54,932 bases of DNA from a virus (IMGVR_UViG_2939147180_000006:1-54932); one strand, 5' to 3'. Positions 29,878 to 54,932 are shown, counted from the stretch's first letter. Translations and numbers: made by a program. Notes: generated from the letters alone by a model not told the origin.

Positions 29878-30076
29878 ACTTATTCCCCATTCGTGCGTCG
29901 TGTTCCTCTTGCGCCCGCTTGTTCTCCTGTGATTTGAAGTAATAATTAACGGCAAATGTGCCTATGGTTGATAAGATACCCACAAAGACGGCAATGTCAT
30001 TGATGGTTATCGCGCCGAAAAAAGCGGTTACGGCCCCGGTCACATACGCACACGCCTCCCGTATTCTGTCGAACAT
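29876..30076 (-). CDS. S: Class II holin (pinholin, S21-like)
   Basis: 66 aa, two TM segments, charged C-terminus; GGAGG RBS; ATGA overlap with endolysin; table start at 30109 lies in the terminator. Confidence 0.75.
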
Positions 30077-30092
30077 AGATTTACCTCCAACA

Positions 30093-30118
30093 AAGCAAAA
30101 ACCCGGCACGGGGCCGGG
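30093..30118 (-). terminator. tR'-like Rho-independent terminator immediately upstream of holin
   Basis: Minus strand cccggc-cccg-tgccggg hairpin followed by TTTTTGCTTTG, ending about 10 nt before the holin RBS. Confidence 0.6.
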
Positions 30119-30146
30119 TAGTTACAGTTTCGCATTGTTAGGTAAT

Positions 30147-30176
30147 ATTTTAATCTGTTTGTTTGCGCTCTACAAA
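30147..30176 (-). promoter_or_regulatory. Candidate sigma70 late promoter (pR'-like): TTGTAG-17bp-TAAAAT
   Basis: Read on minus strand; promoter, ~45-nt leader and terminator precede the holin as in the lambda pR'-tR' arrangement. Confidence 0.45.
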
Positions 30177-30183
30177 TACGGCT

Positions 30184-30360
30184 TTACTGCTTTCTGTATA
30201 TCAGGCCATTATTTAGTAATGTTTGCATATGCCACCGATCCATGTCGCTTAATTCCCAATACGGAACATCATCAGGTCTTATCATCACCGCTTCACCTCT
30301 AACCAAATACGCGATGTTAAATACCTTATGCAAATAGATACCATCTTCGATCTCATTCAT
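30184..30360 (-). CDS. Hypothetical protein (58 aa), paralog of adjacent ORF 30357..30542
   Basis: Manually translated MNEIEDGIYLHKVFNIAYLVRGE...; shares the IEDGIY N-terminus with its neighbour; ATGA overlap. Confidence 0.4.
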   Translation of the reverse strand: MNEIEDGIYLHKVFNIAYLVRGEAVMIRPDDVPYWELSDMDRWHMQTLLNNGLIYRKQ

Positions 30361-30542
30361 AGTTCACCAAGTTTAAACAGTTCGCCTTTATCAACGTATC
30401 GCTCAATATCTTCCCTTGTTGTTTTGATGAATGGCTCTGCATATTCCTCCCCACCATCTACACTAATTGTTACAGTATCGCCTTCAACCATGTAAAATAC
30501 GTTTTCCATCAGGTTTACACCATAGATACCGTCTTCAATCAT
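30357..30542 (-). CDS. Hypothetical protein (61 aa)
   Basis: Track ORF; MIEDGIYGVNLMENVFYMVEGD N-terminus similar to the downstream paralog. Confidence 0.4.
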   Translation of the reverse strand: MIEDGIYGVNLMENVFYMVEGDTVTISVDGGEEYAEPFIKTTREDIERYVDKGELFKLGEL

Positions 30543-30775
30543 TTCTTGCGCTCCTTAATAGCTCGCTTGATCTGCTCTACCGTAGCATCGAAGAAAGCGA
30601 GAAACATAACTACAGGCCATAAAGGAATCTCAAGGCCACCAGGTTTAGCACCGCTAAACTTAATAAAACATGACATCAGGATCGCGCCAGCGATATAAAG
30701 CAAAACAATCACAGCAATAAGGCATTCAATCATAATCATCCTCATCGTCTTCGTGTTCAGCCAGGAACTCATCAA
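30539..30775 (-). CDS. Hypothetical membrane protein (78 aa, two TM)
   Basis: Track ORF; hydrophobic segments; 4-nt overlap with neighbour. Confidence 0.4.
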   Translation of the reverse strand: MMSSWLNTKTMRMIMIECLIAVIVLLYIAGAILMSCFIKFSGAKPGGLEIPLWPVVMFLAFFDATVEQIKRAIKERKK

Positions 30776-31545: not shown

Positions 31546-31547
31546 AA

Positions 31548-35105: not shown

Positions 35106-35298
35106 TATCTTTATTCCGTCCGTAAATATGTACTGGCTCAACTGGTACGGCTGGCAATTCACCATCATTTAACGCGCTTGCCATACCCAATATTAATCGT
35201 GCTTCCGCACCAGTGACTTTCTTACACCATGCACCGCCAGTTTTATCTTCGAACAAGATAACAGCAAACTGATCGTTTATTTCCAGCTTATCCATCAT
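35092..35298 (-). CDS. Hypothetical protein (68 aa)
   Basis: Track ORF; 4-nt overlap with the Q-like gene. Confidence 0.35.
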   Translation of the reverse strand: MMDKLEINDQFAVILFEDKTGGAWCKKVTGAEARLILGMASALNDGELPAVPVEPVHIYGRNKDNENN

Positions 35299-36017
35299 TC
35301 ACCCCGCGTCACTCTTTTAATTTCGTTATCTGCCAGCGCCTCTTCTTTGAACAATTCAGCAATGGCGTCTTCATAGAAAGCCCGGTACTTTTTCCACCAT
35401 GTTGATCGGCTTACCGGAAAAACAAGCTGATTAACCGCCTGCCGTACAAGATCTACAGGGAAACGCGAGTACCCGCGCCCGCCGCAATGCTGGCACGTTT
35501 TGAACACTGGCATTTCCGCCGCTTCACTGGCTGCTTTATCCGGTACTTCGCCACGGCCCTTGCATTGTTTACAATGATTGCGAACTGTCCCATGCCCCTT
35601 GCATTTCTTACAAAGGTGTTTTTCTCCGTAGTCGTCAAACGTAAATTTATATCCGCCGCACTCCATACAAGTTTTTTCCGTCGCGGCACTCTGGCAATAA
35701 TCCCGAAACGCGAAAACGGCAACAAGAATAATGAGATCATTGCGTTTGGCCTCGTCCAGTTCCATAACGTATTCATAATCTTTTGCCATAGCCCTTAAAC
35801 GCTCTGTAAGCAAAACTACGGCCTTATGTTTTTCGGCTTGTGATAGTTCCATCTTCCCTAAAAAAGCGCTGTAACCAAGCTCTACGCGCGATTGCGCCAT
35901 GCCTGCTGCAGTTAGTGCATCCGTAGTATTAAGAGCATCCGGGGACGTGCCCCGGCTTTCATCTGACAAACGAGGTGATTTTGGGAAGTGGAATTTCAGA
36001 ATTGATTCCAGATTCAT
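35295..36017 (-). CDS. Putative late antiterminator Q-family protein with DnaJ-like CxxCxGxG zinc-finger repeats
   Basis: 240 aa directly downstream of ninG and rusA (canonical Q position); repeats CMECGGY, CKKCKGHG, CKQCKGRG, CQHCGGRG; family assignment from memory, unverified. Confidence 0.45.
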   Translation of the reverse strand: MNLESILKFHFPKSPRLSDESRGTSPDALNTTDALTAAGMAQSRVELGYSAFLGKMELSQAEKHKAVVLLTERLRAMAKDYEYVMELDEAKRNDLIILVAVFAFRDYCQSAATEKTCMECGGYKFTFDDYGEKHLCKKCKGHGTVRNHCKQCKGRGEVPDKAASEAAEMPVFKTCQHCGGRGYSRFPVDLVRQAVNQLVFPVSRSTWWKKYRAFYEDAIAELFKEEALADNEIKRVTRGE

Positions 36018-36211
36018 TATTTACCCCCGTAACGCGCAACCAGTCTTTTGCGATCAGATATTGCCTGCACTAGCTTTCTTTCAAGCTCTTTAAGTGCAAG
36101 CAATTCTCGCATGTGAAAAGCCTGTATTTGTCGCACAGTCTCTAAATCATGCTCATCGTGCTGAATATCTATTTGCAGATCTTTAATTTCGTTTTTCATT
36201 TCTAACCCCAT
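36017..36211 (-). CDS. Hypothetical protein (64 aa)
   Basis: Track ORF between rusA and the Q-like gene. Confidence 0.35.
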   Translation of the reverse strand: MGLEMKNEIKDLQIDIQHDEHDLETVRQIQAFHMRELLALKELERKLVQAISDRKRLVARYGGK

Positions 36212-36603
36212 ATATTCGTTGCGTATTCGTCAATATCCGGTAGTAGGTCACCGCGCTCGCGTACCTTAATAAACAATCGACCGCCTTTTACCTTCCGGCA
36301 GCGAACAATTTTTATAGAATCGATCTGCCCGTCGTCGGTCCAGAATCCAGCGTAAGTAAGGCTGTCAAAAAGGCATTTGGGGATATTATCCAGATCTCTG
36401 ATCCGGTTATCCGGCGGCGCGGCATAAATGGCTATTGCCAGTCGGCAAGATAGGTTGATGTTTAAATTTAATAGCTCGATGATGTCTCTTACCTGTTCCC
36501 TGTATTCTTTACCAACCTTGCTGATATAGTGAAAACCGCGTGAATGACGGTAATATCGGTTATTAGATGGTGGGTAAGGTAGGCTAAATGTATATTCGTT
36601 CAT
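36202..36603 (-). CDS. rusA: RusA-family Holliday junction resolvase
   Basis: 133 aa; N-terminus LPYPPSNNRYYRHSRG, then RDLDNIPKCLFDSLTYAGFW and KGGRL closely match E. coli RusA from memory. Confidence 0.85.
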   Translation of the reverse strand: MNEYTFSLPYPPSNNRYYRHSRGFHYISKVGKEYREQVRDIIELLNLNINLSCRLAIAIYAAPPDNRIRDLDNIPKCLFDSLTYAGFWTDDGQIDSIKIVRCRKVKGGRLFIKVRERGDLLPDIDEYATNIWG

Positions 36604-37205
36604 GCTGCCTTTCTCCTTAAGGCGTCCAATTTAGCCTGATAAACTTTTATGATCTCCTTGCATTCTTCGATCGTCCATTTGTGCGTATCATTGTTGTTCT
36701 CCAGTGCTACCACCCTGGCCAGGCCAATTTTTCGAATCAGTGCCGGGCGATACCCTCCGATGTTGCCGTCTAATGTCTGGTTGCAGTGCCTGCATTGTTT
36801 GTGACAATTATCCTCATTGAAGCGAAGGTGTCCGGCGGCTGCTACCGTTCTATAGTGTCCGGCATCCCATGAACATTGCTCGCCGTAGTAAGTGCCGCAT
36901 GATATACACGGCAAACGAGCGTCACGCTCGCGGATATATGCATTAAATACCGCTTGCGCCTGCTTGATCCAGTAACTACGCGGATTTAACTGTTTCCGCT
37001 TCCGGTTGCGTTCTTCCCGCTGGCTGTCGCGGCGTTTCTTCCGTTCCATAGCCTTCATAGCCTTCTCACGGTCGCGGCATAACTGGTCAAACTTCAGTTC
37101 TTCCAGACATTCGTCACTGCACCACGTTTGATTGTGATATTTAGGCTCAAAAAAAACGCCGCAGCACTTGCAACGGCGTCTTATGGGTTTTTTAGGGTTC
37201 TGCAT
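36600..37205 (-). CDS. ninG: NinG / Rap-like recombination-associated protein
   Basis: Cys-rich protein (CKCCGVFF, CISCGTYYGEQCSWDAGHYR, CRHCNQ) directly upstream of rusA; start trimmed to MQNPKKPIRRR. Confidence 0.7.
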   Translation of the reverse strand: MQNPKKPIRRRCKCCGVFFEPKYHNQTWCSDECLEELKFDQLCRDREKAMKAMERKKRRDSQREERNRKRKQLNPRSYWIKQAQAVFNAYIRERDARLPCISCGTYYGEQCSWDAGHYRTVAAAGHLRFNEDNCHKQCRHCNQTLDGNIGGYRPALIRKIGLARVVALENNNDTHKWTIEECKEIIKVYQAKLDALRRKAA

Positions 37206-37243
37206 AAAAACCACCCCGATTATTTTTGATTCTCTGTTTCGTT

Positions 37244-37396
37244 CAGCCTTTCGGCGTGTCCGGCCCTTAGCCAATGTTCTAAACATTCGTTGCACTCGTT
37301 ACAGCCTCCTTTCTTAGTGCTGCATACATTACACATTGCACGCATGACGCTTTCTCGCTCATAGTCGTCATGCCATTGGTAATCATCAAAAGGCAT
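37244..37396 (-). CDS. Small zinc-ribbon protein (50 aa) upstream of ninG
   Basis: Manually translated MPFDDYQWHDDYERESVMRAMCNVCSTKKGGCNECNECLEHWLRADTPKG; AAGGAGAG RBS. Confidence 0.4.
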
Positions 37397-37473
37397 AATG
37401 CTCTCTCCTTTTCAGGTGATTTATACGCATTTCAGCGCTGCCGGATTTTTAAAGAGCATTTGTTTGCTTGAAG

Positions 37474-37552
37474 TATACAAAATGGATACGTCATAACAAG
37501 CTGAAAAGCGCCATTATGTGATCCGTATCACACAATGACGCCATTTTGTAAA
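37474..37552. promoter_or_regulatory. Regulatory region: TATACAAAATGG and CCATTTTGTAAA in inverted orientation flanking CRP-consensus palindrome TGTGATCCGTATCACA
   Basis: Read directly; TGTGA-N6-TCACA at 37517..37532; intergenic between C5-MTase-like gene and ninG block. Confidence 0.45.
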
Positions 37553-37554
37553 CT

Positions 37555-38337
37555 TCAGTCAGGCAAAACACGGTTAAGCGTAGTACGATTGATGGCCCTG
37601 TCGTTAGCCAGGAATACAGCACGGGCAAAGCCGCGCGGCGTTAGCGAGCGGATCATCTTTGTTCGTTTCGTCCGGCCTCCAGTTTTAGACCATCCCGGGT
37701 TATCACCAGAGTTAAGATCTACAGGTCTGAAAAGCGGTTGTTTAAATCCGTTACCGCACCAAATACAAGTTTTCTTTGTATACGCGTCGCGCGACGGGTA
37801 AACATCCTGGAAAGCAGGATGCTTGTCATCTTCCGGCAGGTAGCCACCGTAAGCGCAAGGATTAAAGATAAAATCCGGTTTACGCCATAACGTTGACAGT
37901 GCGCCCACCGGATTTTCCACCATCCACGGCACGTTATACATATTTGCCAGTTTTTCTACAATTTTTGCGTTATACGCCGCCTTTACCTGGAAGCCAGGAT
38001 CTTTTTTTCGCTTATCAGCGAACCAGCGAGCGCCAGACACAGCGAGATCGTCGCATGGAGGAAAGCCCAAGATAATGTCAGGCTCTGGATAAACAGACAA
38101 TTCAGGGGAGAACATTACCAGGAAATGGCTGTCAATCCATACGTTAACATATTCAATATTCGGATGAATGATTTTAACGCCTTCATAATCGCCGTGGTTT
38201 GCGCCGTCATAGTTGAAGCAATAGCACTTATATCCAGCATCCGCCCAGTCTTTAACGGCATATCCGCTGCCGTCGTACAGCGACCACACAACCCAGCTTC
38301 TAAGCCAATTATTTAACCAGTGTTTAGCCTTGCTCAT
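37555..38337 (-). CDS. Putative DNA cytosine-C5 methyltransferase (compact, divergent)
   Basis: 260 aa; motif-I-like SLYDGSGYA, motif-IV-like GFPPCDDLAVSG, motif-VI-like WMVENPVG; target-recognition region short. Confidence 0.5.
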   Translation of the reverse strand: MSKAKHWLNNWLRSWVVWSLYDGSGYAVKDWADAGYKCYCFNYDGANHGDYEGVKIIHPNIEYVNVWIDSHFLVMFSPELSVYPEPDIILGFPPCDDLAVSGARWFADKRKKDPGFQVKAAYNAKIVEKLANMYNVPWMVENPVGALSTLWRKPDFIFNPCAYGGYLPEDDKHPAFQDVYPSRDAYTKKTCIWCGNGFKQPLFRPVDLNSGDNPGWSKTGGRTKRTKMIRSLTPRGFARAVFLANDRAINRTTLNRVLPD

Positions 38338-42653: not shown

Positions 42654-42660
42654 ATAAGCC

Positions 42661-46100: not shown

Positions 46101-46252
46101 ATACCTTAAAAGCTCTTTAAAAATCCGGTGTCGCTGCGAAGCGAAAAACAAATATCACGCAACGGCGGGATCTGTTGAGCGGTCAGTCACTGCTATCTAA
46201 TGCTAATTGGATGCCCGCCAGCGCGTTCACTCTAACCATAGGAGAAAACACG

Positions 46253-46507
46253 ATGAGCACGAACATGATTAACAAAGCATGGAACGTAAAACTTAACAGC
46301 CCGATTCAAAAACTAGTTTTAATCTCCCTTGCTGAGACGGCGGATAGCCAGGGGCGGACAAGCGTATCACGCGAAGAAGTAGCAAAAATGTGTGAACTTC
46401 CTGTTCATACGGTACATGATGCCTTCGCCGCATTAATTAGCAAAGGGTTTGTTTGCCGTATTGATGCGTTTAGTGGTGTCTATGTAGTTATGTTGCCGGA
46501 GGAATGA
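46253..46507 (+). CDS. Winged-helix DNA-binding protein, first gene of rightward early operon
   Basis: AGGAG RBS and ATG at 46253 (table ORF has an N-terminal extension); HTH-like segment TSVSREEVAKMCELPVHTVHDAFAALISKGFV; not lambda-Cro-like. Confidence 0.45.
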   Translation: MSTNMINKAWNVKLNSPIQKLVLISLAETADSQGRTSVSREEVAKMCELPVHTVHDAFAALISKGFVCRIDAFSGVYVVMLPEE

Positions 46508-47556
46508 TTATGAAGTGGTTTAAGCATGATAGCGATGCGAACCGCGATGAAAAACTTCAAAACGTTTTATTAGATTATGGCCTGGAAGGTTACGGGCTTT
46601 ATTGGTATTGCCTTGAACTGATAACTTATGACGTAGATCAGCACAATCTTACTTTTGACCTACGACATGACGCGAGAATCATTGCGCGAAACGTCGGATC
46701 TACTGAAAAACGTATAGAAGAAATGATGAAATACTTCATCGAAATTGGTTTGTTTGAATGTTCTCAAGGCCACATAACTTGCCTAAAGTTATTAAAAAGG
46801 CTAGACCAATCAATGACTTCTAAAAGCGCTTACAGGGCCGCCATAAACACAGCGAAGGAGCAATTAAAATTAGAAAAGTTAATCAATCCAACACAAAAAG
46901 GTCATGATAGGGTCATGACCGGGTCAGGAAAGGGTCATGAATTAGAATTAGAAGAAGAAATAGAAAAAGATATATACACTTCGTGTATTGTCGAAAATGA
47001 ACAAAAAATGGTCAATCAGGATGACGTAAACGAAGCGGCGTTGCGTTGCCTGGCCTTCTACAACGACAAGGCAGGATGCAAATGTCGTGATGCGAAGCCA
47101 TTCATCGAACTACTGACAGAAACAAAAACACGTAAAGCGTATACGGAGGATGAGATCACATTGGTGATTGAGTGGGCTTTAACGCAATGGCGTAGCCGTG
47201 GTGGAACACCTAAGCCTATCAATATTTGCCGGGTAACTAAATTTGATGGGTATCTGACTGATGCTGAACAATGGCGCAAACTGTCAGCCACTGCAAACGC
47301 TGCCGACGTGGTGGAAGCATTTAACAGCACGTTTGACGGCCTGTTACCACCTGTCGAACTGGATCGGGATCTTGAACGCAAGATCTATGCGTTCACTGAC
47401 TACCTGAAAGACAAAAGCATTAACGGCTTTGTCGCCTACTTCGAAACATTCAAAAACACGGCTTCAGATTTTTACTTCGGCAATGGCTTCACGGCGACAC
47501 TTGATTTTCTGCTTAAACCAAAAACGCTACGCGATACACGCGCAGGCGCTCTTTGA
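46504..47556 (+). CDS. Replication initiation / replisome organiser protein
   Basis: 350 aa; N-terminus KWFKHDSDANRDEKLQNVLLDYGLEGYGLYWYCLE resembles phage replisome-organiser N-domain proteins; followed by helicase. Confidence 0.6.
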   Translation: MIMKWFKHDSDANRDEKLQNVLLDYGLEGYGLYWYCLELITYDVDQHNLTFDLRHDARIIARNVGSTEKRIEEMMKYFIEIGLFECSQGHITCLKLLKRLDQSMTSKSAYRAAINTAKEQLKLEKLINPTQKGHDRVMTGSGKGHELELEEEIEKDIYTSCIVENEQKMVNQDDVNEAALRCLAFYNDKAGCKCRDAKPFIELLTETKTRKAYTEDEITLVIEWALTQWRSRGGTPKPINICRVTKFDGYLTDAEQWRKLSATANAADVVEAFNSTFDGLLPPVELDRDLERKIYAFTDYLKDKSINGFVAYFETFKNTASDFYFGNGFTATLDFLLKPKTLRDTRAGAL

Positions 47557-47690
47557 CCAACCACGATCCACAAAAACCCAAAATAACCCGCAAAACAAGC
47601 TCGCCAGCGAGATAAATCGCATGTGGTGCTATACTTGCTTACCTTTTTGCGATTAGCTCGTTATAGAGCGTTACAGAGAGGATTTCAAAA

Positions 47691-47792
47691 ATGGACGGTA
47701 AACACGTTTTCGCCCTGGCTTTTGCCATCGCCGCTGCAATAGCTGTTAACGTCGCTTTGTTCGGCGGTTTGTTCCTTCTAGTCAATCCATAA
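47691..47792 (+). CDS. Small hydrophobic peptide (33 aa) MDGKHVFALAFAIAAAIAVNVALFGGLFLLVNP
   Basis: Manually translated; GAGAGGA RBS; in the rep-ant intergenic region. Confidence 0.3.
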   Translation: MDGKHVFALAFAIAAAIAVNVALFGGLFLLVNP

Positions 47793-47923
47793 CATACCTA
47801 CCAGTCAGTAAATCAAAAATTAGCCACCTGGTAGCGCCTCTGACGCAATAAGACACTGCAACCCGTGCAAATGGGTTACGCGGTGGAATTTTGCGTTGTA
47901 GAGTGTTTTACGGGGAATATACA

Positions 47924-48661
47924 ATGTCTGATTTAATGGTTTTTAATTTTGATAATAATCAAATCACTGCTGTAATTTATGATGGTAAACCTGCTTTTGT
48001 TGCGGTTGAGGTAGCGAAAACGTTAGGTTATAACGATGAGCATCAAGCTCTTAATAAGCATTGTAAGTCATTGATTAGACTTGATTCCGTCGAAACGACG
48101 TCTTTGGGTTTTGGGTTCAGACCTAAAGGAATAATTCTAATCAGGGAGGCAGACGTATACCGTCTTGTCATGCGATCGAAGCTACCATCGGCTGAGCGCT
48201 TCCAGGATTGGGTGTGCGAGGATGTTCTCCCTGCTTTGCGTGAAAATGGACATTACGGCTTTAAACCAGCTTTGCCGGATTTCACTGATCCGGTTGCGGC
48301 AGCCCGCGCATGGGCGGATGAGGTTGAGCAAAAATTGTTAGTTAAGAAAGAAAATGAACGGCTTACGCTTGAAAACAAGGTGCTGGCTCCGAAAGCGGCT
48401 GTATGTGACGCGATAGTCAAAAACGATATGCACAGAACGGCTTCAGAGGTAGCTAAACCGCTGGGAATGTCAGCCGTAAAATTAAACAGAAAACTTTCGG
48501 CGGTTGGTGTTTACGATCTTCGCTGTCGCCGCCGTGTATTCAGTCAGTGGTTTATTGATGAGGGCTACGGTGAAATGAGGGTAACTCACGATGGATATGA
48601 GCAGGCTGTATTCACTGCTAAAGGACAAGTATGGATCACTGAGCTTTTAACTTGTAACTAA
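47924..48661 (+). CDS. ant: Antirepressor (Bro-N plus KilAC/ANT domains)
   Basis: Start trimmed to MSDLMVFNF; Bro-N-like N-terminus and ANT-like C-terminal half. Confidence 0.65.
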   Translation: MSDLMVFNFDNNQITAVIYDGKPAFVAVEVAKTLGYNDEHQALNKHCKSLIRLDSVETTSLGFGFRPKGIILIREADVYRLVMRSKLPSAERFQDWVCEDVLPALRENGHYGFKPALPDFTDPVAAARAWADEVEQKLLVKKENERLTLENKVLAPKAAVCDAIVKNDMHRTASEVAKPLGMSAVKLNRKLSAVGVYDLRCRRRVFSQWFIDEGYGEMRVTHDGYEQAVFTAKGQVWITELLTCN

Positions 48662-48695
48662 GTATACAATTTGTTATTCGTGAGGAAATGACACT

Positions 48696-49814
48696 ATGTC
48701 ACAAAGAAAGATAAGCGATGAGCAATTGATCGCTGAATATAACAACGGTTTAACGTACAAGCAGATCGCTGAAAAGTACGGCATGTCAAAACGCAACGTA
48801 GAGCGCCTGGGGGCAAAACTGGCGAAACGCGGTTTATTGTCAACACGCCGCGCGCCTGGTTTTGGCGTCAATGGCGAGTCGTTGCTAGTCGATAAGAACG
48901 GCAATGTGATCATGCGCTGGATTAAAACAGTCCGTGACCGCGATGAAATGGAACAGCTAATGGAATCGGCCCGCTACGCATTCACGGAAGAAATACCACG
49001 CGCGGAGGCAGTGCCAGTGCCGGAAATTGATTTCCAAAAAAGCCTGGCCCTTTATCCGGTATTTGATCTGCATATCGGCGCACTTGCTCACAAAGCAGAA
49101 TGCGGCGAGAGCTACGACACCGGGATCGCTGAGCGCGTGTTGAATGACTTCTTTGACTACGCGGTGGGCGCTGCGCCGATGTCTGAAAAAGCCGTTTTGC
49201 TTCTCGGTGGCGACCTGCTTCATTCTGATGGAATGGTCCCGGTTACACCAACAAGCGGGCACATTCTTGATCAAGATAGTCGTTATGCAAAACTTGTCTA
49301 TGTAGCGATCCGGTCTGTCCGGCGTGCTGTCGGGAAGATGTTGTTAAATCATAAGGATATTGAAATCCAGGTGTTATCAGGCAATCACGATCAGTCAGGG
49401 ATGATCTGGTTACGTGCGGCGCTGGCGGCTTTTTACGAAGATGAACCGCGTGTGACGGTTGATGTGTCACCTGCTATTGTTCACCACACGCAGTACGGTA
49501 AAACATTTCTCGCTTACCACCACGGGCACACTATCAAAAAGCCAGAGAATTTACTTTCTGCCTGCGTTTCTGACTGGCGGGAGGATTTCGGCAAGTCTTC
49601 GGCGGTTTACGCTCATTGTGGGCACTGGCATCATCAACGGCTGATTGAATCATCGCTAGGCGTTGTTGAGTATCACGGCACATTAGCGGGAAAAGACGCT
49701 TATTCGACTAATGGCGGCTGGCGGTCGCGGCGTCTGGCGGCGGTAATAATTTACAGTCCTGATCACGGGGAGATCGGGCGCTTTGTTTATTACCCTGAAT
49801 ATTCCATTTTGTAA
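48696..49814 (+). CDS. HTH-domain / calcineurin-like metallophosphoesterase fusion protein
   Basis: 372 aa; N-terminal HTH LTYKQIAEKYGMSKRNVERLGAKLAKRGLL; phosphoesterase motifs in order: FDLHIG, LGGDLLHSDG, LSGNHDQ, YHHGH, CGHWHH; GAGGA RBS. Confidence 0.55.
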   Translation: MSQRKISDEQLIAEYNNGLTYKQIAEKYGMSKRNVERLGAKLAKRGLLSTRRAPGFGVNGESLLVDKNGNVIMRWIKTVRDRDEMEQLMESARYAFTEEIPRAEAVPVPEIDFQKSLALYPVFDLHIGALAHKAECGESYDTGIAERVLNDFFDYAVGAAPMSEKAVLLLGGDLLHSDGMVPVTPTSGHILDQDSRYAKLVYVAIRSVRRAVGKMLLNHKDIEIQVLSGNHDQSGMIWLRAALAAFYEDEPRVTVDVSPAIVHHTQYGKTFLAYHHGHTIKKPENLLSACVSDWREDFGKSSAVYAHCGHWHHQRLIESSLGVVEYHGTLAGKDAYSTNGGWRSRRLAAVIIYSPDHGEIGRFVYYPEYSIL

Positions 49815-49832
49815 ACCGGAGGCAATAACATA

Positions 49833-51248
49833 ATGGTAACTGAGCAAATAAACTCACTACGGCAGGAACGTGAAGCATCAGTTATCGGCGGGCTGCTGTT
49901 AGGTGGCCTTACTCCTAACGCGCAAGATGTTCTAGCCACACTTGATCCTGAAGTGTTCACGATCCCGCTTTATAAACGTGCGTTTGAAGTTATCCGGGCG
50001 CAAGCCAGAAACAGAAATCTTATCGACGCGTTATTGGTTGGCGATGAGATTGGCAATGAAAACTTTGTACCGCTAATGCAAACGGCGCGATCGTGTCCTT
50101 CTGCTGCCAACCTGAAGGGATACGCACAGCTACTACGTGAAGAGCACCAGCGGCGGCAGATGTTGGAACTCATCGACGATATGCGCTACAAACTGGAAAC
50201 TGGGACACTTGATGTCGTCAAAGAGACGATGAAAGATTTTGATTCCCGGTATTCAAAATTAAAAGTAACGAAAGACAAGATCATTCCGGTGTTGTTGCGC
50301 GATGCGGTACAGGAATACACGGAGGTTTTAAGCAAACGCATGGAATGCGGTGTCAATTCTGACAACATCAAAACAGGGGTAGAACCACTCGACGAAATGT
50401 TAGGCGGCATTAACGCTACTGATTTGGTGCTTCTCGCCGGACGTCCTGGGTCTGGTAAATCTGCGTTGGCGCTGACAATTGCCCGCGCTGCCGCTGAACG
50501 CCCTTACCCTGGCAGTAAAGATCAGCGGGTTGGCGTTTTGTTCTTCACGCTTGAAATGTCACTCGATCAGATGACTGAACGCGCCATCGCTGGCGCTGGT
50601 AATTTATCAACCGACTGCCTGCGCAATCCGGTAAAACTTGATGATGAGGGGTGGGCGCATGTCGGCCAGGGCATGAGCGCACTTGCTAACCTTGATGTGT
50701 GGATCGTTGACGCGTCGCAGTTAACGGTTGAGGAAATACGCGCAACAACGGAACGCATGAAACAGGATCACCCAAATTTGGGCATGTTAATGATTGACTA
50801 CATCGGGTTAATGAAGCTGGCTAAGGCCGAACGTCACGATCTCGCTGTAGGGCAATTGTCGTGGTCGTTGAAGATGATGGCGAAAGAATTGCGCGTACCA
50901 GTGTTGGCGCTGGCGCAGTTGTCCCGCCGCGTTGAGGAACGACCGAATAAGCGTCCTAACAATTCAGATCTTCGCGATTCCGGGAACCTTGAGCAAGACG
51001 CTGACAGGATCATCATGGTGTACCGCGATGGATATTACGATGAGCAGTCTGTAGCACGTGAATACATGGAAATAATTGTATCTAAAAACCGTCACGGGAA
51101 AACTGGTACTGTTTACCAGCGGTTTGATGACAACGGCAATATATTACCATGCGACCAGGGTAAGGCCGCCGCCGCGTGCATTCAGTCCATGAATCATCGT
51201 ACAAGCAGATTTAATCAACGAAACAATCAGAATAGCGCATCTTTTTAA
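49833..51248 (+). CDS. dnaB: Replicative DNA helicase (DnaB family)
   Basis: 471 aa; Walker A GRPGSGKSA, Walker B LMIDYIG, DnaB-type N-terminal domain. Confidence 0.85.
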   Translation: MVTEQINSLRQEREASVIGGLLLGGLTPNAQDVLATLDPEVFTIPLYKRAFEVIRAQARNRNLIDALLVGDEIGNENFVPLMQTARSCPSAANLKGYAQLLREEHQRRQMLELIDDMRYKLETGTLDVVKETMKDFDSRYSKLKVTKDKIIPVLLRDAVQEYTEVLSKRMECGVNSDNIKTGVEPLDEMLGGINATDLVLLAGRPGSGKSALALTIARAAAERPYPGSKDQRVGVLFFTLEMSLDQMTERAIAGAGNLSTDCLRNPVKLDDEGWAHVGQGMSALANLDVWIVDASQLTVEEIRATTERMKQDHPNLGMLMIDYIGLMKLAKAERHDLAVGQLSWSLKMMAKELRVPVLALAQLSRRVEERPNKRPNNSDLRDSGNLEQDADRIIMVYRDGYYDEQSVAREYMEIIVSKNRHGKTGTVYQRFDDNGNILPCDQGKAAAACIQSMNHRTSRFNQRNNQNSASF

Positions 51249-51324
51249 TTAATATGAGCAAACGGCTTACCGGAAAGTTTACCGCTTTCTGGTGGCCGTT
51301 ATCGCGTTTAAAGCGAGGCTGAAA

Positions 51325-51852
51325 ATGAAAACTTCATACCAACAACAAATAATTGATTTTTTAAATGACGCTGTTATTTCAGGTGAGGGAACGATAGTTA
51401 AATCTATTCCTGGACCTGAAGGTGAAATAATTTGCGCTTTGGATGCTTTGGTTTCTGATGGTGTTATTATAAAAGTAGATCTAAATAGTAAAAGATTATC
51501 ATATTGCTTGAAGTCAGTAAGAGAAATGGCGATAAGGGATATAATCCCTTTGTTTTCAAATAGTAGCGGGTATTTTTCAGCGGAAGATGTTAAAAATGAA
51601 TTGAATATTAATATAAACAAAGGAAAGGTCGGAAGAATATTGCGGATGTTAGGAAGTGAGAACCTATTAACTGTTAATAAGTTTGACGGTAAATATTTTT
51701 TCAGAAACGCGCGTTTTTATGGCTATTCAAATGTTATCGCATTTAATTTTAGTAACTTATTAAACGAATACCGTAAAAATAATGGGCTGCTTCCTGATAA
51801 ACCAGTATTTGAGATCGAAAAACTTAACGGCAAAAAGGGGTTGGAATTATGA
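51325..51852 (+). CDS. Hypothetical protein (176 aa) in locally AT-rich segment
   Basis: GAGGCT RBS and ATG at 51325; marked local drop in GC suggests separate acquisition. Confidence 0.45.
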   Translation: MKTSYQQQIIDFLNDAVISGEGTIVKSIPGPEGEIICALDALVSDGVIIKVDLNSKRLSYCLKSVREMAIRDIIPLFSNSSGYFSAEDVKNELNININKGKVGRILRMLGSENLLTVNKFDGKYFFRNARFYGYSNVIAFNFSNLLNEYRKNNGLLPDKPVFEIEKLNGKKGLEL

Positions 51853-52055
51853 GACGTGTAATTTTTTATTCAGTTGAAACGTTTATTGACGAATCTCACT
51901 TTAAATTCCCACGCAATCCTTGCTGCGCGATGGTTTATACACCTCCACTAATGCGCAAGTATAGGCACGTAAAATTTAACCGGGCTTTTGTGCCGATTCG
52001 TTACGCTTTGCAGGCGTTGCGCGGTGAATTACGAAACACAATGCGTATTGTGTAA
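51849..52055 (+). CDS. Hypothetical protein (68 aa)
   Basis: Track ORF; 4-nt overlap with the previous gene. Confidence 0.35.
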   Translation: MRRVIFYSVETFIDESHFKFPRNPCCAMVYTPPLMRKYRHVKFNRAFVPIRYALQALRGELRNTMRIV

Positions 52056-52064
52056 GGGGCGATC

Positions 52065-52262
52065 ATGAATAAGGAATTGGATTTAACCGTTGAAGACTTG
52101 AGCACGATTGCTGAATACATGCGAGGAGACGATCCTGATAAACCTGTCGTGGTTGACATGAAAGAGTTAAAAGAAAAATACATGACAAGCTCGCGTCTAA
52201 TTTCTTTGCAGGCGATCATGTATGCGCGGGCACAGTGGAAAAATAGTAACGGTGTATCATGA
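52065..52262 (+). CDS. Hypothetical protein (65 aa)
   Basis: Track ORF; overlaps ninB start. Confidence 0.35.
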   Translation: MNKELDLTVEDLSTIAEYMRGDDPDKPVVVDMKELKEKYMTSSRLISLQAIMYARAQWKNSNGVS

Positions 52263-52690
52263 GGCAAATAAGATTTGAGATAGTAAATGACGCCGTAAAA
52301 GAAAACGCTATCAGACAGATAAGGGATATTCAGCCTGATAGCAAAAGCCCGCTGATAATTACCATTCGGGAGAAAACCCGCTCGCTAAGTCAGAATGCGT
52401 TGCTTTGGGCGCTACTGACAGACGTTAGCGATCAGGTTAATTGGTACGGCAAGAAGCTGTCACCTGAAGACTGGAAGGCGGTATTCACTGCCGGGCTTAA
52501 GAAATATGGCGTTGTCCCTAACCTGGACAAATCAGGCTTTGTTGTTCTGGGAACATCAACCAGCCGGATGAGTAAAGCAGAATTTAGCGAATTAATCGAA
52601 CTGATCTACTCGTTCGGCGCGGAACACGGTGTTCAGTGGTCTGGCGATACGAAGTTAAACGAGGAATTTATAAAACGCTGGGGGCAATAA
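52259..52690 (+). CDS. ninB: NinB (Orf-family recombination mediator)
   Basis: 143 aa; extensive resemblance to lambda NinB incl. RSLSQNALLWA, WKAVFTAGLKK, GVVPNLDKSGFVVLGTSTSRMS. Confidence 0.85.
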   Translation: MRQIRFEIVNDAVKENAIRQIRDIQPDSKSPLIITIREKTRSLSQNALLWALLTDVSDQVNWYGKKLSPEDWKAVFTAGLKKYGVVPNLDKSGFVVLGTSTSRMSKAEFSELIELIYSFGAEHGVQWSGDTKLNEEFIKRWGQ

Positions 52691-52866
52691 TGGTTAGTTA
52701 TTACAGGGCTAAACCTACAGGCATTTTGTATAAGATTGATGGCGAATATGTTTATTACTTTCACAACCAGGCGCGTGATTGGCGATTGTGTCACGCGCAC
52801 TTTAAGCACGAAATAGAAAATAACCCTGAATACTTTATCAAAGTTGACAATGTAACGGTGGCGTAA
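52690..52866 (+). CDS. Hypothetical nin-region protein (58 aa)
   Basis: TAATG overlap with ninB stop; table ORF 52636..52866 trimmed. Confidence 0.4.
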   Translation: MVSYYRAKPTGILYKIDGEYVYYFHNQARDWRLCHAHFKHEIENNPEYFIKVDNVTVA

Positions 52867-52867
52867 T

Positions 52868-53521
52868 ATGGCAAATAAAACACCTCGCGCAATAGGAAGA
52901 ATATTTCATCGTTTCAACGTTGATATTCCAAGTTTTGAAGTAACAACGTTTTTAAGCTATTACGATTTTGGTACTAAGTATTACGCAGGATCTAAGGTTG
53001 GCGGCGAGAGTTATACGCTGATGGCTAATACGTGGAGTTTTGTGCGCTACTCTGAAAAGGATGCTGACGGTATGAATAAAGAAAGCGAAATCATTGATGA
53101 ATTGATCGAAGATGAACGACGTGAATGCGAAACACAACCAGAAAAAACGGAATGGGCCGCAGGTGATAAACCTCCTGTTAATGTGTGGCTTGATTGTATG
53201 GGTGTAACCAGTGGAACGGTTCTTGATGTCGTCAAGTTTTTATATCTCGGTGATAATTGGGCTATCGCTCACAGTAAATTAGTATCAGATATTGAAACAG
53301 CTATCGCATGGAAACAATACTCTTACCGCATTCACATTGACCCGAAAGAAAAGGCGCTTGCTGAAATCGCGTTCGCACTTGCTATCAATGTCATGGGTGA
53401 AGATGCGGCAAAAGAGATTGACTTTAACCACGACAATGATTTTTCGTGCGATTATCGCAATATGGCGCAAGCTATTATTGACGGATGTATCGGACACGTT
53501 GAATACACGGGGAAAAGATAA
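52868..53521 (+). CDS. Hypothetical protein (217 aa)
   Basis: Track ORF; 1-nt spacing from neighbours. Confidence 0.45.
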   Translation: MANKTPRAIGRIFHRFNVDIPSFEVTTFLSYYDFGTKYYAGSKVGGESYTLMANTWSFVRYSEKDADGMNKESEIIDELIEDERRECETQPEKTEWAAGDKPPVNVWLDCMGVTSGTVLDVVKFLYLGDNWAIAHSKLVSDIETAIAWKQYSYRIHIDPKEKALAEIAFALAINVMGEDAAKEIDFNHDNDFSCDYRNMAQAIIDGCIGHVEYTGKR

Positions 53522-53739
53522 TGGATAAGGTCGGGACAATTCTTATTAATCGTGAGCAAGTGCAAAAAATGTTGGGCGGGCTTAGTAAGTCCGCCTTTTT
53601 TAAGCTCGTTAAGAAATGGAAAGATGCCGGAACTCCTTTCCCTGAACCAGTTAAGGGGATGCCAGCGTTAAAGCGCGGCGGATCTCTTTACCGTTATCAG
53701 GATGTCATTTCATTTTGTAAATCAATGGGCTTCATGTAG
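53521..53739 (+). CDS. xis: AlpA-family excisionase / transcriptional regulator
   Basis: 72 aa; HTH LINREQVQKMLGGLSKSAFFKLVKK followed by FPEPVK...RYQDV, AlpA-like; convergent with and overlapping the integrase 3' end. Confidence 0.5.
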   Translation: MDKVGTILINREQVQKMLGGLSKSAFFKLVKKWKDAGTPFPEPVKGMPALKRGGSLYRYQDVISFCKSMGFM

Positions 53740-54896
53740 TAATCAGCCAGTTTATTCATCGCCTCGATTTGCTCCCTCACATAATCATACTGATCATATA
53801 TAGCCATCATTCCCGCCAGTTTATGACCTAAGACCTTTTCGGCTACGTGCGGCGCAATGCCAAGCGCTGAAAGGTTTGTCCTTACAGTGCGGCGTAGATC
53901 GTGACACGACCACGGCTCGCCGCCCATCCTTAGCATCAAATCCCTTGCGGCTGTTTTCGGTACGCTCCTGTCCACCGCTTCATCCCTTCCAGAAAGCACT
54001 GGAACGAAGATAAAATTAAAGCCGTGCAAATCCATAGCTTCACGCAATAAATCAACGCTAACGGCGGATAAACCGCGTTTAAACTCATTTCTGTTCTTAC
54101 TCAATGCGCCAGGCACGGTCCACACGCAGTTATCAAGATCGAAATGTTCGCGCCTTGAGTTTGTCAGTTCGCTTGTTCTGCATCCGGTGAATATAATCAG
54201 CTTCATCAATATCTGGTTCAGTCGCGCCATTTTTGAACTGTCTATAAGGCTGATTAGATGGTGAATCTCTTGTATTGACAAAACGCGTTTCCTTTGCGCA
54301 GGGTTTTTGCCTACGTCTTTCACGCGTAGCAATGATATGTCGTCACGCTCCACGCGGCGGCGTCGCATGGCATATTTTATCACCGCCTTCATCCTGTTTA
54401 AGACTATCCCTGCCTGAACGGGCGCGCCACCATTAGCTACCTTTCTAAAAATCCCCTCCCACATTATGGAGTCCATATCATCGACGATATAGCTACCGCA
54501 TGGTCTGACAATATGCTTACTTAGCATCGCCTCGACTTGCTTATAGTTGACCATGTTTCTTGCCTGCGGTGATTCCATATACTCCCTTACAATATCCTCA
54601 ACCGTTGCCCGTGTCGTAACGCGGGAAATGTGCATTCTTTTTGCTACCGATGGATCTCGACCTGAGTTTAGCACTTCCTTATGCTCCGCCACCGCCGCCC
54701 GCGCTTCTTTGAGTGTTATTTCTCCGTATGTGCCGATCTTCATCCGTCGAGGCTTGCCGTTGAATCGGTAGCGATACTGGAAAGATATAACTCCGCGCGG
54801 GCTTATCCTGGCAGACAATCCGCCCGCGTCCGGTACTTCTTCCGGGCCGTCGTATGGCTTGCCGTGGATGTTTCTTAATTTGGTATCTGTAAGCAT
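53697..54896 (-). CDS. int: Tyrosine integrase (P4-like, DUF4102-type arm-binding N-terminus)
   Basis: Typical start MLTDTKLRN at 54896 (ORF is open to 54932); catalytic-domain segments incl. HDLRRT and LGH...Y; N-terminal arm-binding domain. Confidence 0.85.
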   Translation of the reverse strand: MLTDTKLRNIHGKPYDGPEEVPDAGGLSARISPRGVISFQYRYRFNGKPRRMKIGTYGEITLKEARAAVAEHKEVLNSGRDPSVAKRMHISRVTTRATVEDIVREYMESPQARNMVNYKQVEAMLSKHIVRPCGSYIVDDMDSIMWEGIFRKVANGGAPVQAGIVLNRMKAVIKYAMRRRRVERDDISLLRVKDVGKNPAQRKRVLSIQEIHHLISLIDSSKMARLNQILMKLIIFTGCRTSELTNSRREHFDLDNCVWTVPGALSKNRNEFKRGLSAVSVDLLREAMDLHGFNFIFVPVLSGRDEAVDRSVPKTAARDLMLRMGGEPWSCHDLRRTVRTNLSALGIAPHVAEKVLGHKLAGMMAIYDQYDYVREQIEAMNKLADYYMKPIDLQNEMTS

Positions 54897-54920
54897 AATT
54901 TGGTCACTATTTGGTACACA
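54897..54920. repeat. 24-bp direct repeat copy (aatttggtcactatttggtacaca), partner of 69..92; a third partial copy sits at 54878..54888
   Basis: Read directly; immediately upstream of the probable integrase start. Confidence 0.4.
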
Positions 54921-54932
54921 CATTCTACGCAT

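What the first reader, a model, noticed from the sequence alone, without database searches (positions are those of the whole stretch)
30076..54932. Non-canonical lambdoid architecture: nin/Q/late genes lie on the pL-type (recombination) arm, replication arm ends at xis-int
In lambda and P22 the rightward operon carries replication, nin, Q, lysis and morphogenesis genes, while the leftward operon carries N, recombination genes and int. Here the leftward (minus) arm from the repressor reads N-like, erf, ssb, methyltransferases, ninG, rusA, Q-like, lysis, head and tail, whereas the rightward arm carries replication genes, ninB and an xis-like gene that converges on int. The nin region is thus split between the two arms (ninB on plus, ninG/rusA on minus). 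This implies a different temporal wiring of late-gene expression, or a past rearrangement.
Basis: partly seen in the sequence, partly recalled or inferred. Interest (0 to 1): 0.4.

Follow-up and report, generated by a model that had tools for sequence, protein, structure and literature searches.

The report
Known mEp021-type coliphage gene layout
The unusual gene order is real, but it is the standard, already published layout of the mEp021-like ("mEpimmI") temperate phages of E. coli, and this window is one more integrated copy of such a phage.

Summary
On the minus strand, after a CI-type repressor, come an N-like antiterminator, Erf, SSB, two methyltransferases, NinF/NinG/RusA, Q, lysis genes, terminase, head and tail. 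On the plus strand come replication genes, a DnaB helicase, NinB and a small HTH gene whose end overlaps a minus-strand integrase.

It is neither an assembly artefact nor a private rearrangement. The window is collinear, with no inversion, with seven sequenced phage isolates (mEp010, mEp013, mEp021, mEp044, mEp515, mEp554, MagusPhagus). It also matches single-copy prophages in 49 of 5,426 complete E. coli genomes and 45 of 45 IMG/VR contigs. More distant lineages, with Q only 45-49% identical, keep the same layout.

Its repressor is 98.5% identical and its N-like protein 97.9% identical to the experimentally studied Rep021 and Gp17 of mEp021. The three published nut sites sit at the expected positions. 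The group was described in 2025 (PMC11893012).

The same Q family sits in the canonical lambda order in Citrobacter and Serratia prophages, so "non-canonical" is fair. The N-to-Q-to-late cascade is kept, but Q hangs on the N/recombination operon. Interest is low.

The parts
69..92 (.). 24-nt repeat AATTTGGTCACAATTTGGTACACA; probable integrase arm-type site on the tail-fibre side of attP
   Evidence: A direct repeat of 54897-54920. It flanks the att region in MagusPhagus, mEp010 and E. coli 190. The function is inferred.
97..120 (-). Intrinsic terminator that ends the long (late) transcription unit just before attP
   Evidence: 10-bp stem with 6 GC pairs, followed by TTTTT.
150..3476 (-). Side tail fibre gene
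   Evidence: phrog_24369 E=1.5e-279. The C-terminal part is about 84% identical in DNA to the phage T5 L-shaped tail fibre gene.
3589..9030 (-). Central tail fibre / host-specificity protein J
   Evidence: phrog_31, E=0.
13813..16161 (-). Tail tape measure protein
   Evidence: phrog_1538 E=1.5e-138.
20284..21336 (-). Major capsid-type virion protein
   Evidence: phrog_771 E=3e-138; phrog_264 major head protein.
23932..27404 (-). Portal (23932-25323), large terminase (25381-26865) and small terminase (26862-27404)
   Evidence: phrog_146, phrog_38 and phrog_1482.
28925..30076 (-). Lysis cassette: Rz-like spanin (28925-29413), endolysin (29383-29874), holin (29876-30076)
   Evidence: phrog_13, phrog_7 and phrog_20.
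30101..30150 (-). Candidate late promoter region: a -10-like TAAAAT, the conserved segment CCTAACAATGCG, then a strong terminator (30119..30101, equivalent to t5 of mEp021) about 20 nt before the holin ribosome-binding site
   Evidence: Terminator found. The hairpin folds at -15.7 kcal/mol, z=-2.4. The block is nearly invariant in mEp021, mEp010 and MagusPhagus, whereas in MagusPhagus the sequence just upstream of it diverges strongly. t5 is reported as experimentally demonstrated in PMC11893012. The promoter assignment is inferred.
35295..36017 (-). Q-type late antiterminator
   Evidence: PF03589 E=9.7e-30; phrog_127 E=3e-78; 95% identical to mEp021 gp37.
36202..37396 (-). NinF-like (37220-37396), NinG (36600-37295) and RusA (36202-36603)
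   Evidence: PF05766 E=4e-68 and PF05866 E=1.1e-14; phrog_30170.
37425..37458 (-). nutR2: boxA GCTCTTTAAAAA, spacer, boxB hairpin GCGCTGAAATGCG
   Evidence: Pattern search. Identical or near-identical at the syntenic position in mEp021, mEp010 and MagusPhagus. Position as published, downstream of the methyltransferase gene (PMC11893012, section 3.5).
37472..37499 (-). Conserved promoter-like element TTGTTA-16-TATACT between terminator t4 and nutR2; it contains the repeated motif CCATTTTGTATAC
   Evidence: The -10 hexamer and the motif are invariant in four genomes; the last base of the -35-like hexamer varies (TTGTTA or TTGTTC). Function not shown.
37508..37542 (-). Terminator t4: a 16-bp hairpin followed by CTTTT
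   Evidence: Folds at -23.2 kcal/mol, z=-7.8. The homologous site is annotated TERM_4 in the mEp021 record.
37555..39859 (-). DNA methyltransferase (37555-38337), membrane protein, unknown ORF, and Dam methyltransferase (39308-39859)
   Evidence: phrog_757 E=1.2e-87; PF05869 E=5e-54.
43298..44355 (-). Recombination genes: Erf (43714-44355) and SSB (43298-43714)
   Evidence: PF04404 E=6.9e-43; PF00436 E=6.4e-23.
44505..44795 (-). N-like antiterminator (Gp17 homologue) with arginine-rich motif R17, R19, R20, R21, R24
   Evidence: phrog_271 E=8.8e-12; 97.9% identical to mEp021 Gp17. The arginines match those reported as conserved in PMC11893012.
44850..44889 (-). nutR1: boxA-like CATTCTTTAACAA plus boxB hairpin GCCGCTGGAAGTGCGGC
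45146..45174 (-). Early promoter of the long arm (TTGACT-17-TATATT)
   Evidence: The best sigma-70 match in the region, 10 of 12. It lies between repressor terminator t1 and nutR1. Function inferred.
45276..45293 (-). Terminator t1, directly after the repressor gene
   Evidence: Annotated TERM_1 in mEp021 and reported as experimentally demonstrated (PMC11893012).
45299..45946 (-). CI-type repressor (immunity group I)
   Evidence: HTH_3 + Peptidase_S24; 98.5% identical to Rep021.
46006..46033 (+). Promoter-like site for the replication arm (TTGACC-16-TAAACT)
   Evidence: Function inferred.
46111..46147 (+). nutL: boxA GCTCTTTAAAAA plus boxB hairpin TCGCTGCGAAGCGA
   Evidence: identical in five genomes. 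Position as published, between the repressor gene and the first replication-arm gene.
46253..53521 (+). Replication arm: winged-HTH protein like the N-terminus of O (46253-46507), Lin1244_N replication protein (46504-47556), Bro-N/ANT (47891-48661), phosphoesterase (48696-49814), DnaB helicase (49833-51248), small ORFs, NinB (52259-52690), 217-aa unknown protein (52868-53521)
53521..53739 (+). 72-aa HTH gene in the position of an excisionase ('xis-like'); its 3' end overlaps the integrase gene
   Evidence: No family hit. Homologues occur only in this phage group. AF2 model pLDDT 78. Best fold matches are MerR-type winged HTH proteins and the GIsul2 excisionase, but all with E>0.3.
53697..54896 (-). 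Tyrosine integrase (abgT-type, 'type II')
   Evidence: Arm-DNA-bind_3 + Phage_int_M + Phage_integrase. About 91% DNA identity to the mEp010 integrase region. The exact protein lies next to ogt-fnr-uspE in independent assemblies.
54897..54920 (.). Second copy of the 24-nt repeat, abutting the integrase start codon

Best explanation
The window is a complete prophage of the mEp021-like ('mEpimmI', immunity group I) temperate siphoviruses of E. coli. It is integrated at the 3' end of abgT and was cut out at gene-call boundaries.

Its layout is the normal one for this lineage:
- A lambda-like immunity core: N-like gene <- early promoter | repressor | promoter -> replication genes.
- Q, lysis and morphogenesis genes are attached to the N/recombination operon instead of the replication operon.

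Relative to the lambda prophage map, this gene order is what a single inversion of the segment from the recombination genes to ninB would give, plus an integrase of opposite orientation.

Likely mechanism:
1. When the repressor is lost, two divergent early promoters fire.
2. The Gp17-type N protein, with host Nus factors, modifies RNA polymerase at nutL on the replication arm, and at nutR1 and nutR2 on the long arm.
3. Transcription then passes the internal terminators of the long arm (t3 and t4 are seen in this window) and reaches ninF-ninG-rusA-Q, about 9 kb downstream.
4. Q then makes transcripts from a late promoter just upstream of the holin gene resistant to terminator t5. These run through lysis, head and tail genes to a terminator immediately before attP.
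5. The replication operon ends in a small HTH (probable excisionase) gene that converges on an autonomously transcribed integrase.

Shown experimentally for close relatives (PMC11893012, and the Arch Virol 2023 paper it cites): repressor immunity, Gp17-dependent antitermination at three nut sites, terminators t1, t2 and t5, and the attachment sites.

Inferred here: the promoter positions, the role of Q at the holin-proximal promoter, and the excisionase function.
For: Identity with the group:
- 87-93% DNA identity in single collinear places with seven mEp-type phage records and 49 E. coli chromosomes.
- All blast segments against mEp010, mEp021 and MagusPhagus lie on one strand and in monotonic order.
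- Repressor 98.5%, Gp17 97.9%, Q 95% identical to mEp021.

Layout conservation:
- 45 of 45 IMG/VR loci show rep, N, erf, ssb, dam, (second methyltransferase, no match in 3 loci), ninG, rusA, Q, holin, lysin, terL on one strand as far as each contig reaches, with the replication gene on the other strand.
- A lineage with Q 49% identical shows both arms, and int followed by tail fibre genes, in 52.8-kb contigs.
- A 45% Q lineage shows the same long arm.

Contrast: the same Q family at 40% identity (Citrobacter) and 32% (Serratia) sits in the order cI | cro - replication - nin genes (NinB only in the Citrobacter locus) - Q - lysis.

Regulatory sites and integration:
- nutL, nutR1 and nutR2 found and conserved.
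- Terminators and promoters.
- Prophage junctions abgT'/tail fibre and int/ogt.
- The virion genome of MagusPhagus joins tail fibre, attP and int on one strand.

Published description of the group: (PMC11893012).
Against: - No transcription data exist for this sequence, and promoter calls are consensus matches only. The scans found no more promoter-like sites than shuffled sequence gives.
- A Cro equivalent was not identified in the window. The first plus-strand gene resembles the N-terminus of replication initiators, although the divergent lineage does have an HTH_3 gene there.
- The position of the late promoter is inferred from conservation only; its -35 region is not conserved in MagusPhagus.
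- The excisionase assignment is unproven.
- I could not read the primary antitermination paper.
Confidence: 0.9

Rival explanations
1. The layout is an assembly artefact, such as a mis-joined or inverted contig segment.
For: None found.
Against: The same order and strand appear in seven independently sequenced phage isolates, 49 complete E. coli chromosomes (one place per genome, with no inverted second place), 45 IMG/VR contigs and several metagenome contigs. The exact integrase protein occurs in the same context in three further assemblies.
Confidence: 0.01
2. A recent private rearrangement of a canonical lambdoid prophage in this host, or a composite of two adjacent elements (a phage plus an integrative element that carries the replication genes and int).
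For: Individual modules have lambdoid relatives: the helicase is 57% identical to P22 gp12, and NinB, NinG, RusA and Q belong to lambdoid families.
Against: The layout is shared by lineages whose Q proteins are only 45-49% identical, so it is old. Virion genomes (mEp021, MagusPhagus and others) contain both arms in one 53-55-kb molecule. There is only one att pair, at abgT/ogt.
Confidence: 0.02
3. The wiring differs more than the published model says. The long arm would be split by a further early promoter between t4 and nutR2 (37499..37472), so that ninF-ninG-rusA-Q forms a third N-dependent operon, the functional counterpart of lambda pR-nutR...Q. The repeated CCATTTTGTATAC motif would mark a family of phage promoter or operator elements.
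For: - A promoter-like TTGTTA-16-TATACT lies directly upstream of nutR2 and downstream of a strong terminator.
- This intergenic region is 93% conserved, above the 81-94% of the long genome segments, and the motif is invariant.
- The motif is over-represented: 18 matches against 2.5 expected. It often lies in intergenic inverted pairs.
- A nut site placed after a terminator makes most sense if new transcripts start there.
Against: The promoter match is only 9 of 12, and overall promoter-like hits are not enriched. nutR2 could simply re-load N onto polymerases coming from the upstream promoter. The motif could be an operator, part of terminator or RNA structures, or a relic of moron (accessory-gene) insertions. 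There are no transcript data.
Confidence: 0.2

Closest known systems
mEp021 and the mEpimmI group of Nus-dependent 'non-lambdoid' coliphages (Negrete-Mendez et al. 2025, PMC11893012; GenBank MH706966, PP180001-PP180005; also MagusPhagus PP925836)
   Same: Whole-genome collinearity at 87-93% identity. Same repressor (98.5%) and Gp17 (97.9%). Same three nut sites and terminators, same two-arm layout, same abgT integration site as the type II integrase members, and same genome size of about 54-55 kb.
   Different: It is not identical to any record searched; the best match is 93% identity over 84% of the early region. It carries a Bro-N/ANT gene where mEp021 has zinc-ribbon and HNH genes. It lacks the Lpp exclusion gene between J and the side fibre. 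Its replication initiator is only 56% identical to that of mEp021.
Lambda, P22 and other lambdoid phages
   Same: CI-type repressor (HTH + S24). N-type antiterminator with an arginine-rich motif and boxA/boxB nut sites on both divergent early operons. Q-type late antiterminator. NinB, NinF, NinG and RusA genes. Erf/SSB recombination module (P22-like). DnaB-type helicase 57% identical to P22 gp12. Lysis cassette followed by terminase, head and tail genes.
   Different: Q and the late genes follow the N/recombination operon, not the replication operon. The replication arm is short and ends at NinB and the xis-like gene. The integrase points the opposite way and lies just beyond the late operon across attP. 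There is a third nut site. No Cro was identified. The group is reported not to form hybrids with lambda (PMC11893012, introduction).
Canonical lambdoid prophages that carry the same Q family (PF03589), in Citrobacter (L056) and Serratia (L057)
   Same: Q 32-40% identical. RusA (Citrobacter locus only), lysis genes and terminase have the same positions relative to Q.
   Different: There, Q lies downstream of cro-(cII)-replication-nin genes (cII and NinB only in the Citrobacter locus) on the strand opposite to cI. This is the arrangement the window lacks.
N15-type linear plasmid prophages (recalled from memory, not tested here)
   Same: As I recall, repA lies on the arm opposite to the cro-Q-late direction, so replication and Q/late genes are likewise on different arms.
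   Different: No integrase or att site (a protelomerase instead), no N-type system as far as I recall, and no sequence relationship was seen in any search here.

Membership tests
mEpimmI (mEp021-like) phage group | Immunity group I repressor (CI-type, HTH + S24) highly similar to Rep021 | tested here: met
   HTH_3 + Peptidase_S24; 98.5% identity to the mEp021 repressor. The paper reports about 96% similarity within the group.
mEpimmI (mEp021-like) phage group | Gp17 N-like antiterminator with conserved arginines at positions 17, 19, 20 and 24 | tested here: met
   97.9% identity to Gp17; R17, R19, R20, R21 and R24 are all present.
mEpimmI (mEp021-like) phage group | Three nut sites (nutL, nutR1, nutR2) at the syntenic positions | tested here: met
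   Found at 46111-46147 (+), 44850-44889 (-) and 37425-37458 (-); conserved in mEp021, mEp010 and MagusPhagus.
mEpimmI (mEp021-like) phage group | Genome-wide nucleotide similarity and synteny with mEp021 | tested here: met
   Collinear blast segments of 80-94% identity with no inversion.
mEpimmI (mEp021-like) phage group | Integration at ydaM, abgT or mppA, with the matching integrase type | tested here: met
   The integrase region is about 91% identical in DNA to mEp010 (type II, abgT). The exact integrase protein lies next to ogt-fnr-uspE. The homologous prophage in E. coli 190 lies between a truncated abgT and ogt.
mEpimmI (mEp021-like) phage group | Siphovirus morphology and dependence on host Nus factors | not testable with these tools
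   Siphovirus-type tail genes are present (tape measure, J, tail tube). Nus dependence needs genetics.
Lambdoid phages (lambda/P22 type) | N and Q antitermination plus CI/Cro immunity | tested here: inconclusive
   N-like, Q and CI are present. No Cro was recognised in the window.
Lambdoid phages (lambda/P22 type) | Common gene order: pR operon = cro-replication-nin-Q-late; pL operon = N-recombination-xis-int | tested here: not met
   Q and the late genes follow N, erf and ssb on one strand. The replication genes and NinB are on the other strand and end at the xis-like gene.
Lambdoid phages (lambda/P22 type) | Ability to form viable hybrids with lambda | not testable with these tools
   Reported negative for the group (PMC11893012 introduction, citing Kameyama 1999).

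The most novel reading that the evidence does not exclude
The long arm is not one early operon. A conserved promoter between terminator t4 and nutR2 would make ninF-ninG-rusA-Q a third, separately initiated N-dependent operon. The over-represented CCATTTTGTATAC motif, often in inverted pairs in intergenic gaps, would be a phage-specific promoter or operator element that partitions the genome into units. That would explain why this group needs a third nut site, and it would mean the timing of late genes is set differently from lambda.
Probability: 0.2. Interest if true: 0.4.

Novelty: already known. Interest (0 to 1): 0.15.

Why it matters
The value is mostly practical. Annotators should recognise this layout as the normal map of mEp021-type prophages, present in about 1% of complete E. 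coli genomes, and not flag it as a mis-assembly.

Biologically, the group is a natural experiment. The Q/late module of a lambda-like circuit can hang on either early arm, and the replication operon can be a short dead-end arm. Comparing it with lambda could show how operon placement sets the delay before late gene expression. That question is already open to the laboratories that work on mEp021. This window adds only one more member.

Tried and rejected
1. **24-nt terminal repeats as the att core.** I first took the repeats at 69-92 and 54897-54920 for the att core. Comparison with E. coli 190, mEp010 and MagusPhagus shows instead that the crossover region is an abgT-like sequence (about TATCCGCTTATCTTTT). 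It lies just left of window position 1 and about 130 nt beyond the right end. The repeats are more likely integrase arm-type sites.

2. **Palindromes as CRP sites.** I read the perfect palindromes TGTGAT-N4-ATCACA at 37517-37532 and 31924-31939 as class I CRP sites upstream of weak promoters. Folding shows that the first is the apex of a 16-bp hairpin followed by a T-run (-23.2 kcal/mol, z=-7.8), and it is annotated TERM_4 in mEp021. The terminator reading is preferred and the CRP idea is downgraded.

3. **Excisionase test.** There are no Pfam, PHROG or NCBIfam hits. Homologues occur only within the group. The AF2 model with Foldseek gave MerR/excisionase-like top hits, but all with E>0.3. The result is inconclusive.

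4. **GTDB representative genomes.** Two scans, with NinG and with Q, found nothing.

5. **IMG/VR scan with the Erf of the divergent lineage.** It returned heterogeneous, unrelated contigs and was not analysed further.

6. **Papers not available.** The Arch Virol 2023 antitermination paper and the J Virol 2024 classification guide are not held.

7. **Terminator t2.** I did not find it convincingly in this window. That stretch instead encodes two small hydrophobic peptides.

Full report
**What is in the window.**
The ORF map shows a long run of minus-strand genes from about 44.8 kb down to 0.15 kb. A minus-strand gene sits at 45.3-45.9 kb, a plus-strand run covers 46.2-53.7 kb, and a minus-strand gene occupies the right end. 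GC skew changes sign at about 46 kb, and there are no tRNAs.

On the minus strand:
- CI-type repressor (HTH_3 + Peptidase_S24)
- N-like protein (phrog_271, E=8.8e-12; Pfam N_peptide only sub-threshold)
- ERF and SSB
- Dam and a second methyltransferase
- NinF-like, NinG and RusA
- Q (PF03589)
- Holin, endolysin and Rz
- Small and large terminase, portal, capsid protein, tape measure, J and a side fibre

On the plus strand:
- A small winged-HTH protein resembling the N-terminus of replication initiators
- A Lin1244_N replication protein
- A Bro-N/ANT protein
- A phosphoesterase
- A DnaB helicase
- NinB
- A 217-aa unknown protein
- A 72-aa HTH gene whose 3' end overlaps the integrase gene by 43 nt

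**What it is.**
The window matches the mEp021 group of coliphages at 87-93% identity, in one collinear place per record. The matching phage records are mEp010, mEp013, mEp021, mEp044, mEp515, mEp554 and MagusPhagus. It also matches single-copy chromosomal prophages in 49 of 5,426 complete E. coli genomes.

Local blastn against mEp010, mEp021 and MagusPhagus gives only segments on one strand and in monotonic order. There is no inversion.

The repressor is 98.5% identical, the N-like protein 97.9% and Q 95% identical to those of mEp021. The integrase region matches mEp010 (type II) rather than mEp021, whose integrase is only 50% identical at the protein level.

The group is described in Negrete-Mendez et al. 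2025 (PMC11893012). That paper reports:
- 48 genomes with high synteny, called 'Nus-dependent non-lambdoid' phages
- A CI-like repressor shown to confer immunity
- Gp17, an N-like antiterminator acting at nutL, nutR1 and nutR2
- A Q-like protein
- Attachment sites in ydaM, abgT or mppA

The mEp021 GenBank record carries the same map in the opposite orientation.

**How widespread the layout is.**
All 45 IMG/VR loci that hold a close Q homologue show one order on one strand, as far as each contig reaches: repressor, N, erf, ssb, dam, the second methyltransferase (no match in 3 loci), ninG, rusA, Q, holin, lysin, terL. Where the replication gene is in range, it lies on the opposite strand.

A more distant lineage, with Q 49% and the phosphoesterase 72% identical, occurs in 52.8-kb metagenome contigs. 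It shows both arms completely: repressor(-) | HTH_3, ANT, phosphoesterase, DnaB, NinB (+) | int(-), followed on the same strand by tail fibre genes. A 45% Q lineage shows the same long arm.

By contrast, Q homologues at 40% identity (Citrobacter) and 32% (Serratia) sit in the classical order cI | cro-(cII)-replication-nin genes-Q-lysis-terminase, where cII, NinB, NinF and RusA are seen only in the Citrobacter locus. So the layout is truly different from the lambdoid one, but it is a fixed and old trait of a described lineage. It is neither an artefact nor a recent event.

Scans of GTDB species-representative genomes found no close relative.

**Topology.**
The window is a prophage cut at gene-call boundaries. 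Position 1 is the ATG of a small ORF, and the last base is the first base of an extended integrase ORF.

In E. coli 190 the homologous prophage lies between a truncated abgT and ogt. The window's exact integrase protein occurs next to ogt-fnr-uspE in three other assemblies.

In the virion genome of MagusPhagus the side-fibre gene, attP and int are contiguous on one strand. On the circular map, the long arm therefore runs N ... Q ... lysis ... tail fibre, then a terminator (120..97), then attP and int. It meets the end of the short replication arm head-on.

Relative to the lambda prophage map, the gene order equals a single inversion of the block from the recombination genes to ninB, plus an integrase of opposite orientation. 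This is my inference from established lambda gene order, which is also summarised in the introduction of PMC11893012.

**How it probably works.**
The immunity core has the same arrangement as lambda's. The parts are:
- The repressor gene, followed by terminator t1 (45293..45276).
- The best sigma-70 match in the region (45174..45146, TTGACT-17-TATATT), then nutR1 (44889-44850), then the N-like gene.
- On the other side, a promoter-like site (46006..46033) and nutL (46111-46147), which precede the replication genes.
- nutR2 (37458-37425), which follows a strong hairpin terminator, t4 (-23.2 kcal/mol, z=-7.8), and precedes ninF-ninG-rusA-Q.

All three nut sites are conserved at syntenic positions in mEp021, mEp010, MagusPhagus and the E. 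coli 190 prophage (nutL only, because only that part was fetched).

A strong terminator (30119..30101, the equivalent of t5) lies about 20 nt before the holin ribosome-binding site. It is preceded by a block, GATTAAAATATTACCTAACAATGCGAAACTGTAACT, that is nearly invariant among relatives, whereas in MagusPhagus the sequence just upstream of it diverges strongly. I take this block as the likely Q-dependent late promoter and leader, but that is inference.

The cascade is thus CI, then N-type, then Q, then late genes, as in lambda. The difference is that Q lies at the far end of the operon that also encodes N, about 9 kb from its promoter.

Published experiments on mEp021 support the repressor, Gp17, the nut sites, and terminators t1, t2 and t5. 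The promoter positions and the role of Q are not shown.

**What remains uncertain.**
The 'xis-like' gene has no family assignment, and its homologues occur only in this group. The predicted fold (pLDDT 78) resembles MerR-type winged HTH proteins and a transposon excisionase only weakly, with E>0.3.

No Cro was recognised in the window.

A promoter-like TTGTTA-16-TATACT lies between t4 and nutR2. Its -10 hexamer is invariant in four genomes, and it overlaps a motif (CCATTTTGTATAC) that is over-represented in the window: 18 matches against 2.5 expected. This would make Q part of a third N-dependent operon, but nothing here proves it.

I first read the palindrome at 37517-37532 as a CRP site. The fold result shows it is the tip of the t4 hairpin, so I withdrew that reading.

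**Verdict.**

The window is an ordinary member of the mEpimmI group. It has an abgT-type integrase, a Bro-N/ANT insertion in the replication arm, and no Lpp exclusion gene. Interest is low.

Noticed in passing
window 3546-3562, 12970-13009, 16201-16240, 31880-31921, 37473-37553, 41065-41079, 45174-45188, 52719-52733: The motif ATCCATTTTGTATAC (up to 3 mismatches) occurs 18 times against 2.5 expected. Many copies are intergenic and in inverted pairs; the element TATACAAAATGG-N16-CCATTTTGTATA occurs at 16201-16240, with weaker copies at 31880-31921 and 12970-13009. The copy next to nutR2 is invariant in four genomes. It may be a promoter -10 region, an operator, or a boundary of accessory-gene (moron) cassettes.
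   Followed up: partly
window 31924-31939 and 37517-37532: The only two perfect TGTGAT-N4-ATCACA palindromes in the window both lie in intergenic gaps of the long arm, 17 nt upstream of a TTGTT(A/T) hexamer. They match the CRP consensus. However, the second is the apex of the 16-bp t4 hairpin.
   Followed up: partly
window 69-92 and 54897-54920 (also about 54877-54890): Direct 24-nt repeats, each made of two ATTTGGT(C/A)CAC units, flank the att region. One copy abuts the integrase start codon. They are probably integrase arm-type binding sites. The true core is abgT-like sequence lying just outside both window ends.
   Followed up: partly
window 3476-3589: Only 113 nt, with a terminator at 3584..3565, separate J from the side-fibre gene. 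The Lpp superinfection-exclusion lipoprotein gene present here in MagusPhagus and E. coli 190 is absent, with no tblastn hit anywhere in the window. The paper reports the lipoprotein superinfection-exclusion system in 83% of genomes.
   Followed up: yes
window 150-3476 (about 1950-3040): The C-terminal part of the side tail fibre gene is about 84% identical in DNA to the L-shaped tail fibre gene (ltf/pb1) of the lytic phage T5 and its relatives. This is a sign of recent exchange of a receptor-binding module.
   Followed up: no
window 48696-49814: The 372-aa phosphoesterase ('DNA repair exonuclease', phrog_704) on the replication arm is about 65% identical to proteins of Escherichia phages damhaus, egaa and aaroes (which I recall as virulent T1-like phages), and 71% to Salmonella phage ST44, whose locus shows no integrase or repressor. 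This module is shared with phages outside the group.
   Followed up: partly
window 47556-48661: This is a variable spot in the replication arm. The window carries a Bro-N/ANT antirepressor-type gene where mEp021 has a zinc-ribbon protein and an HNH endonuclease, and mEp010 has a homing endonuclease.
   Followed up: no
window 53574-53596 (+): A strong terminator-like hairpin (10 bp, 6 GC pairs, then TTTTTT) lies inside the 72-aa xis-like ORF. If it works, only antiterminated transcripts would complete this gene and run antisense into int.
   Followed up: no
window 42545-42766 (-): Two tandem ORFs encode very hydrophobic peptides of 35 and 38 residues (MKKIAMLAAFVAVAAVYL... and MRVDKNTVRAVFCVVAFVFMVV...). 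They sit where mEp021 has terminator t2, and may be Kil- or Hok-like membrane peptides.
   Followed up: no
window 11250-12070, 12880-13780, 16418-16768 (+): Plus-strand ORF clusters are embedded antisense in the tail gene region. The same positions are annotated as opposite-strand genes in mEp010 and MagusPhagus. They are probably accessory genes (morons) expressed from the prophage.
   Followed up: no
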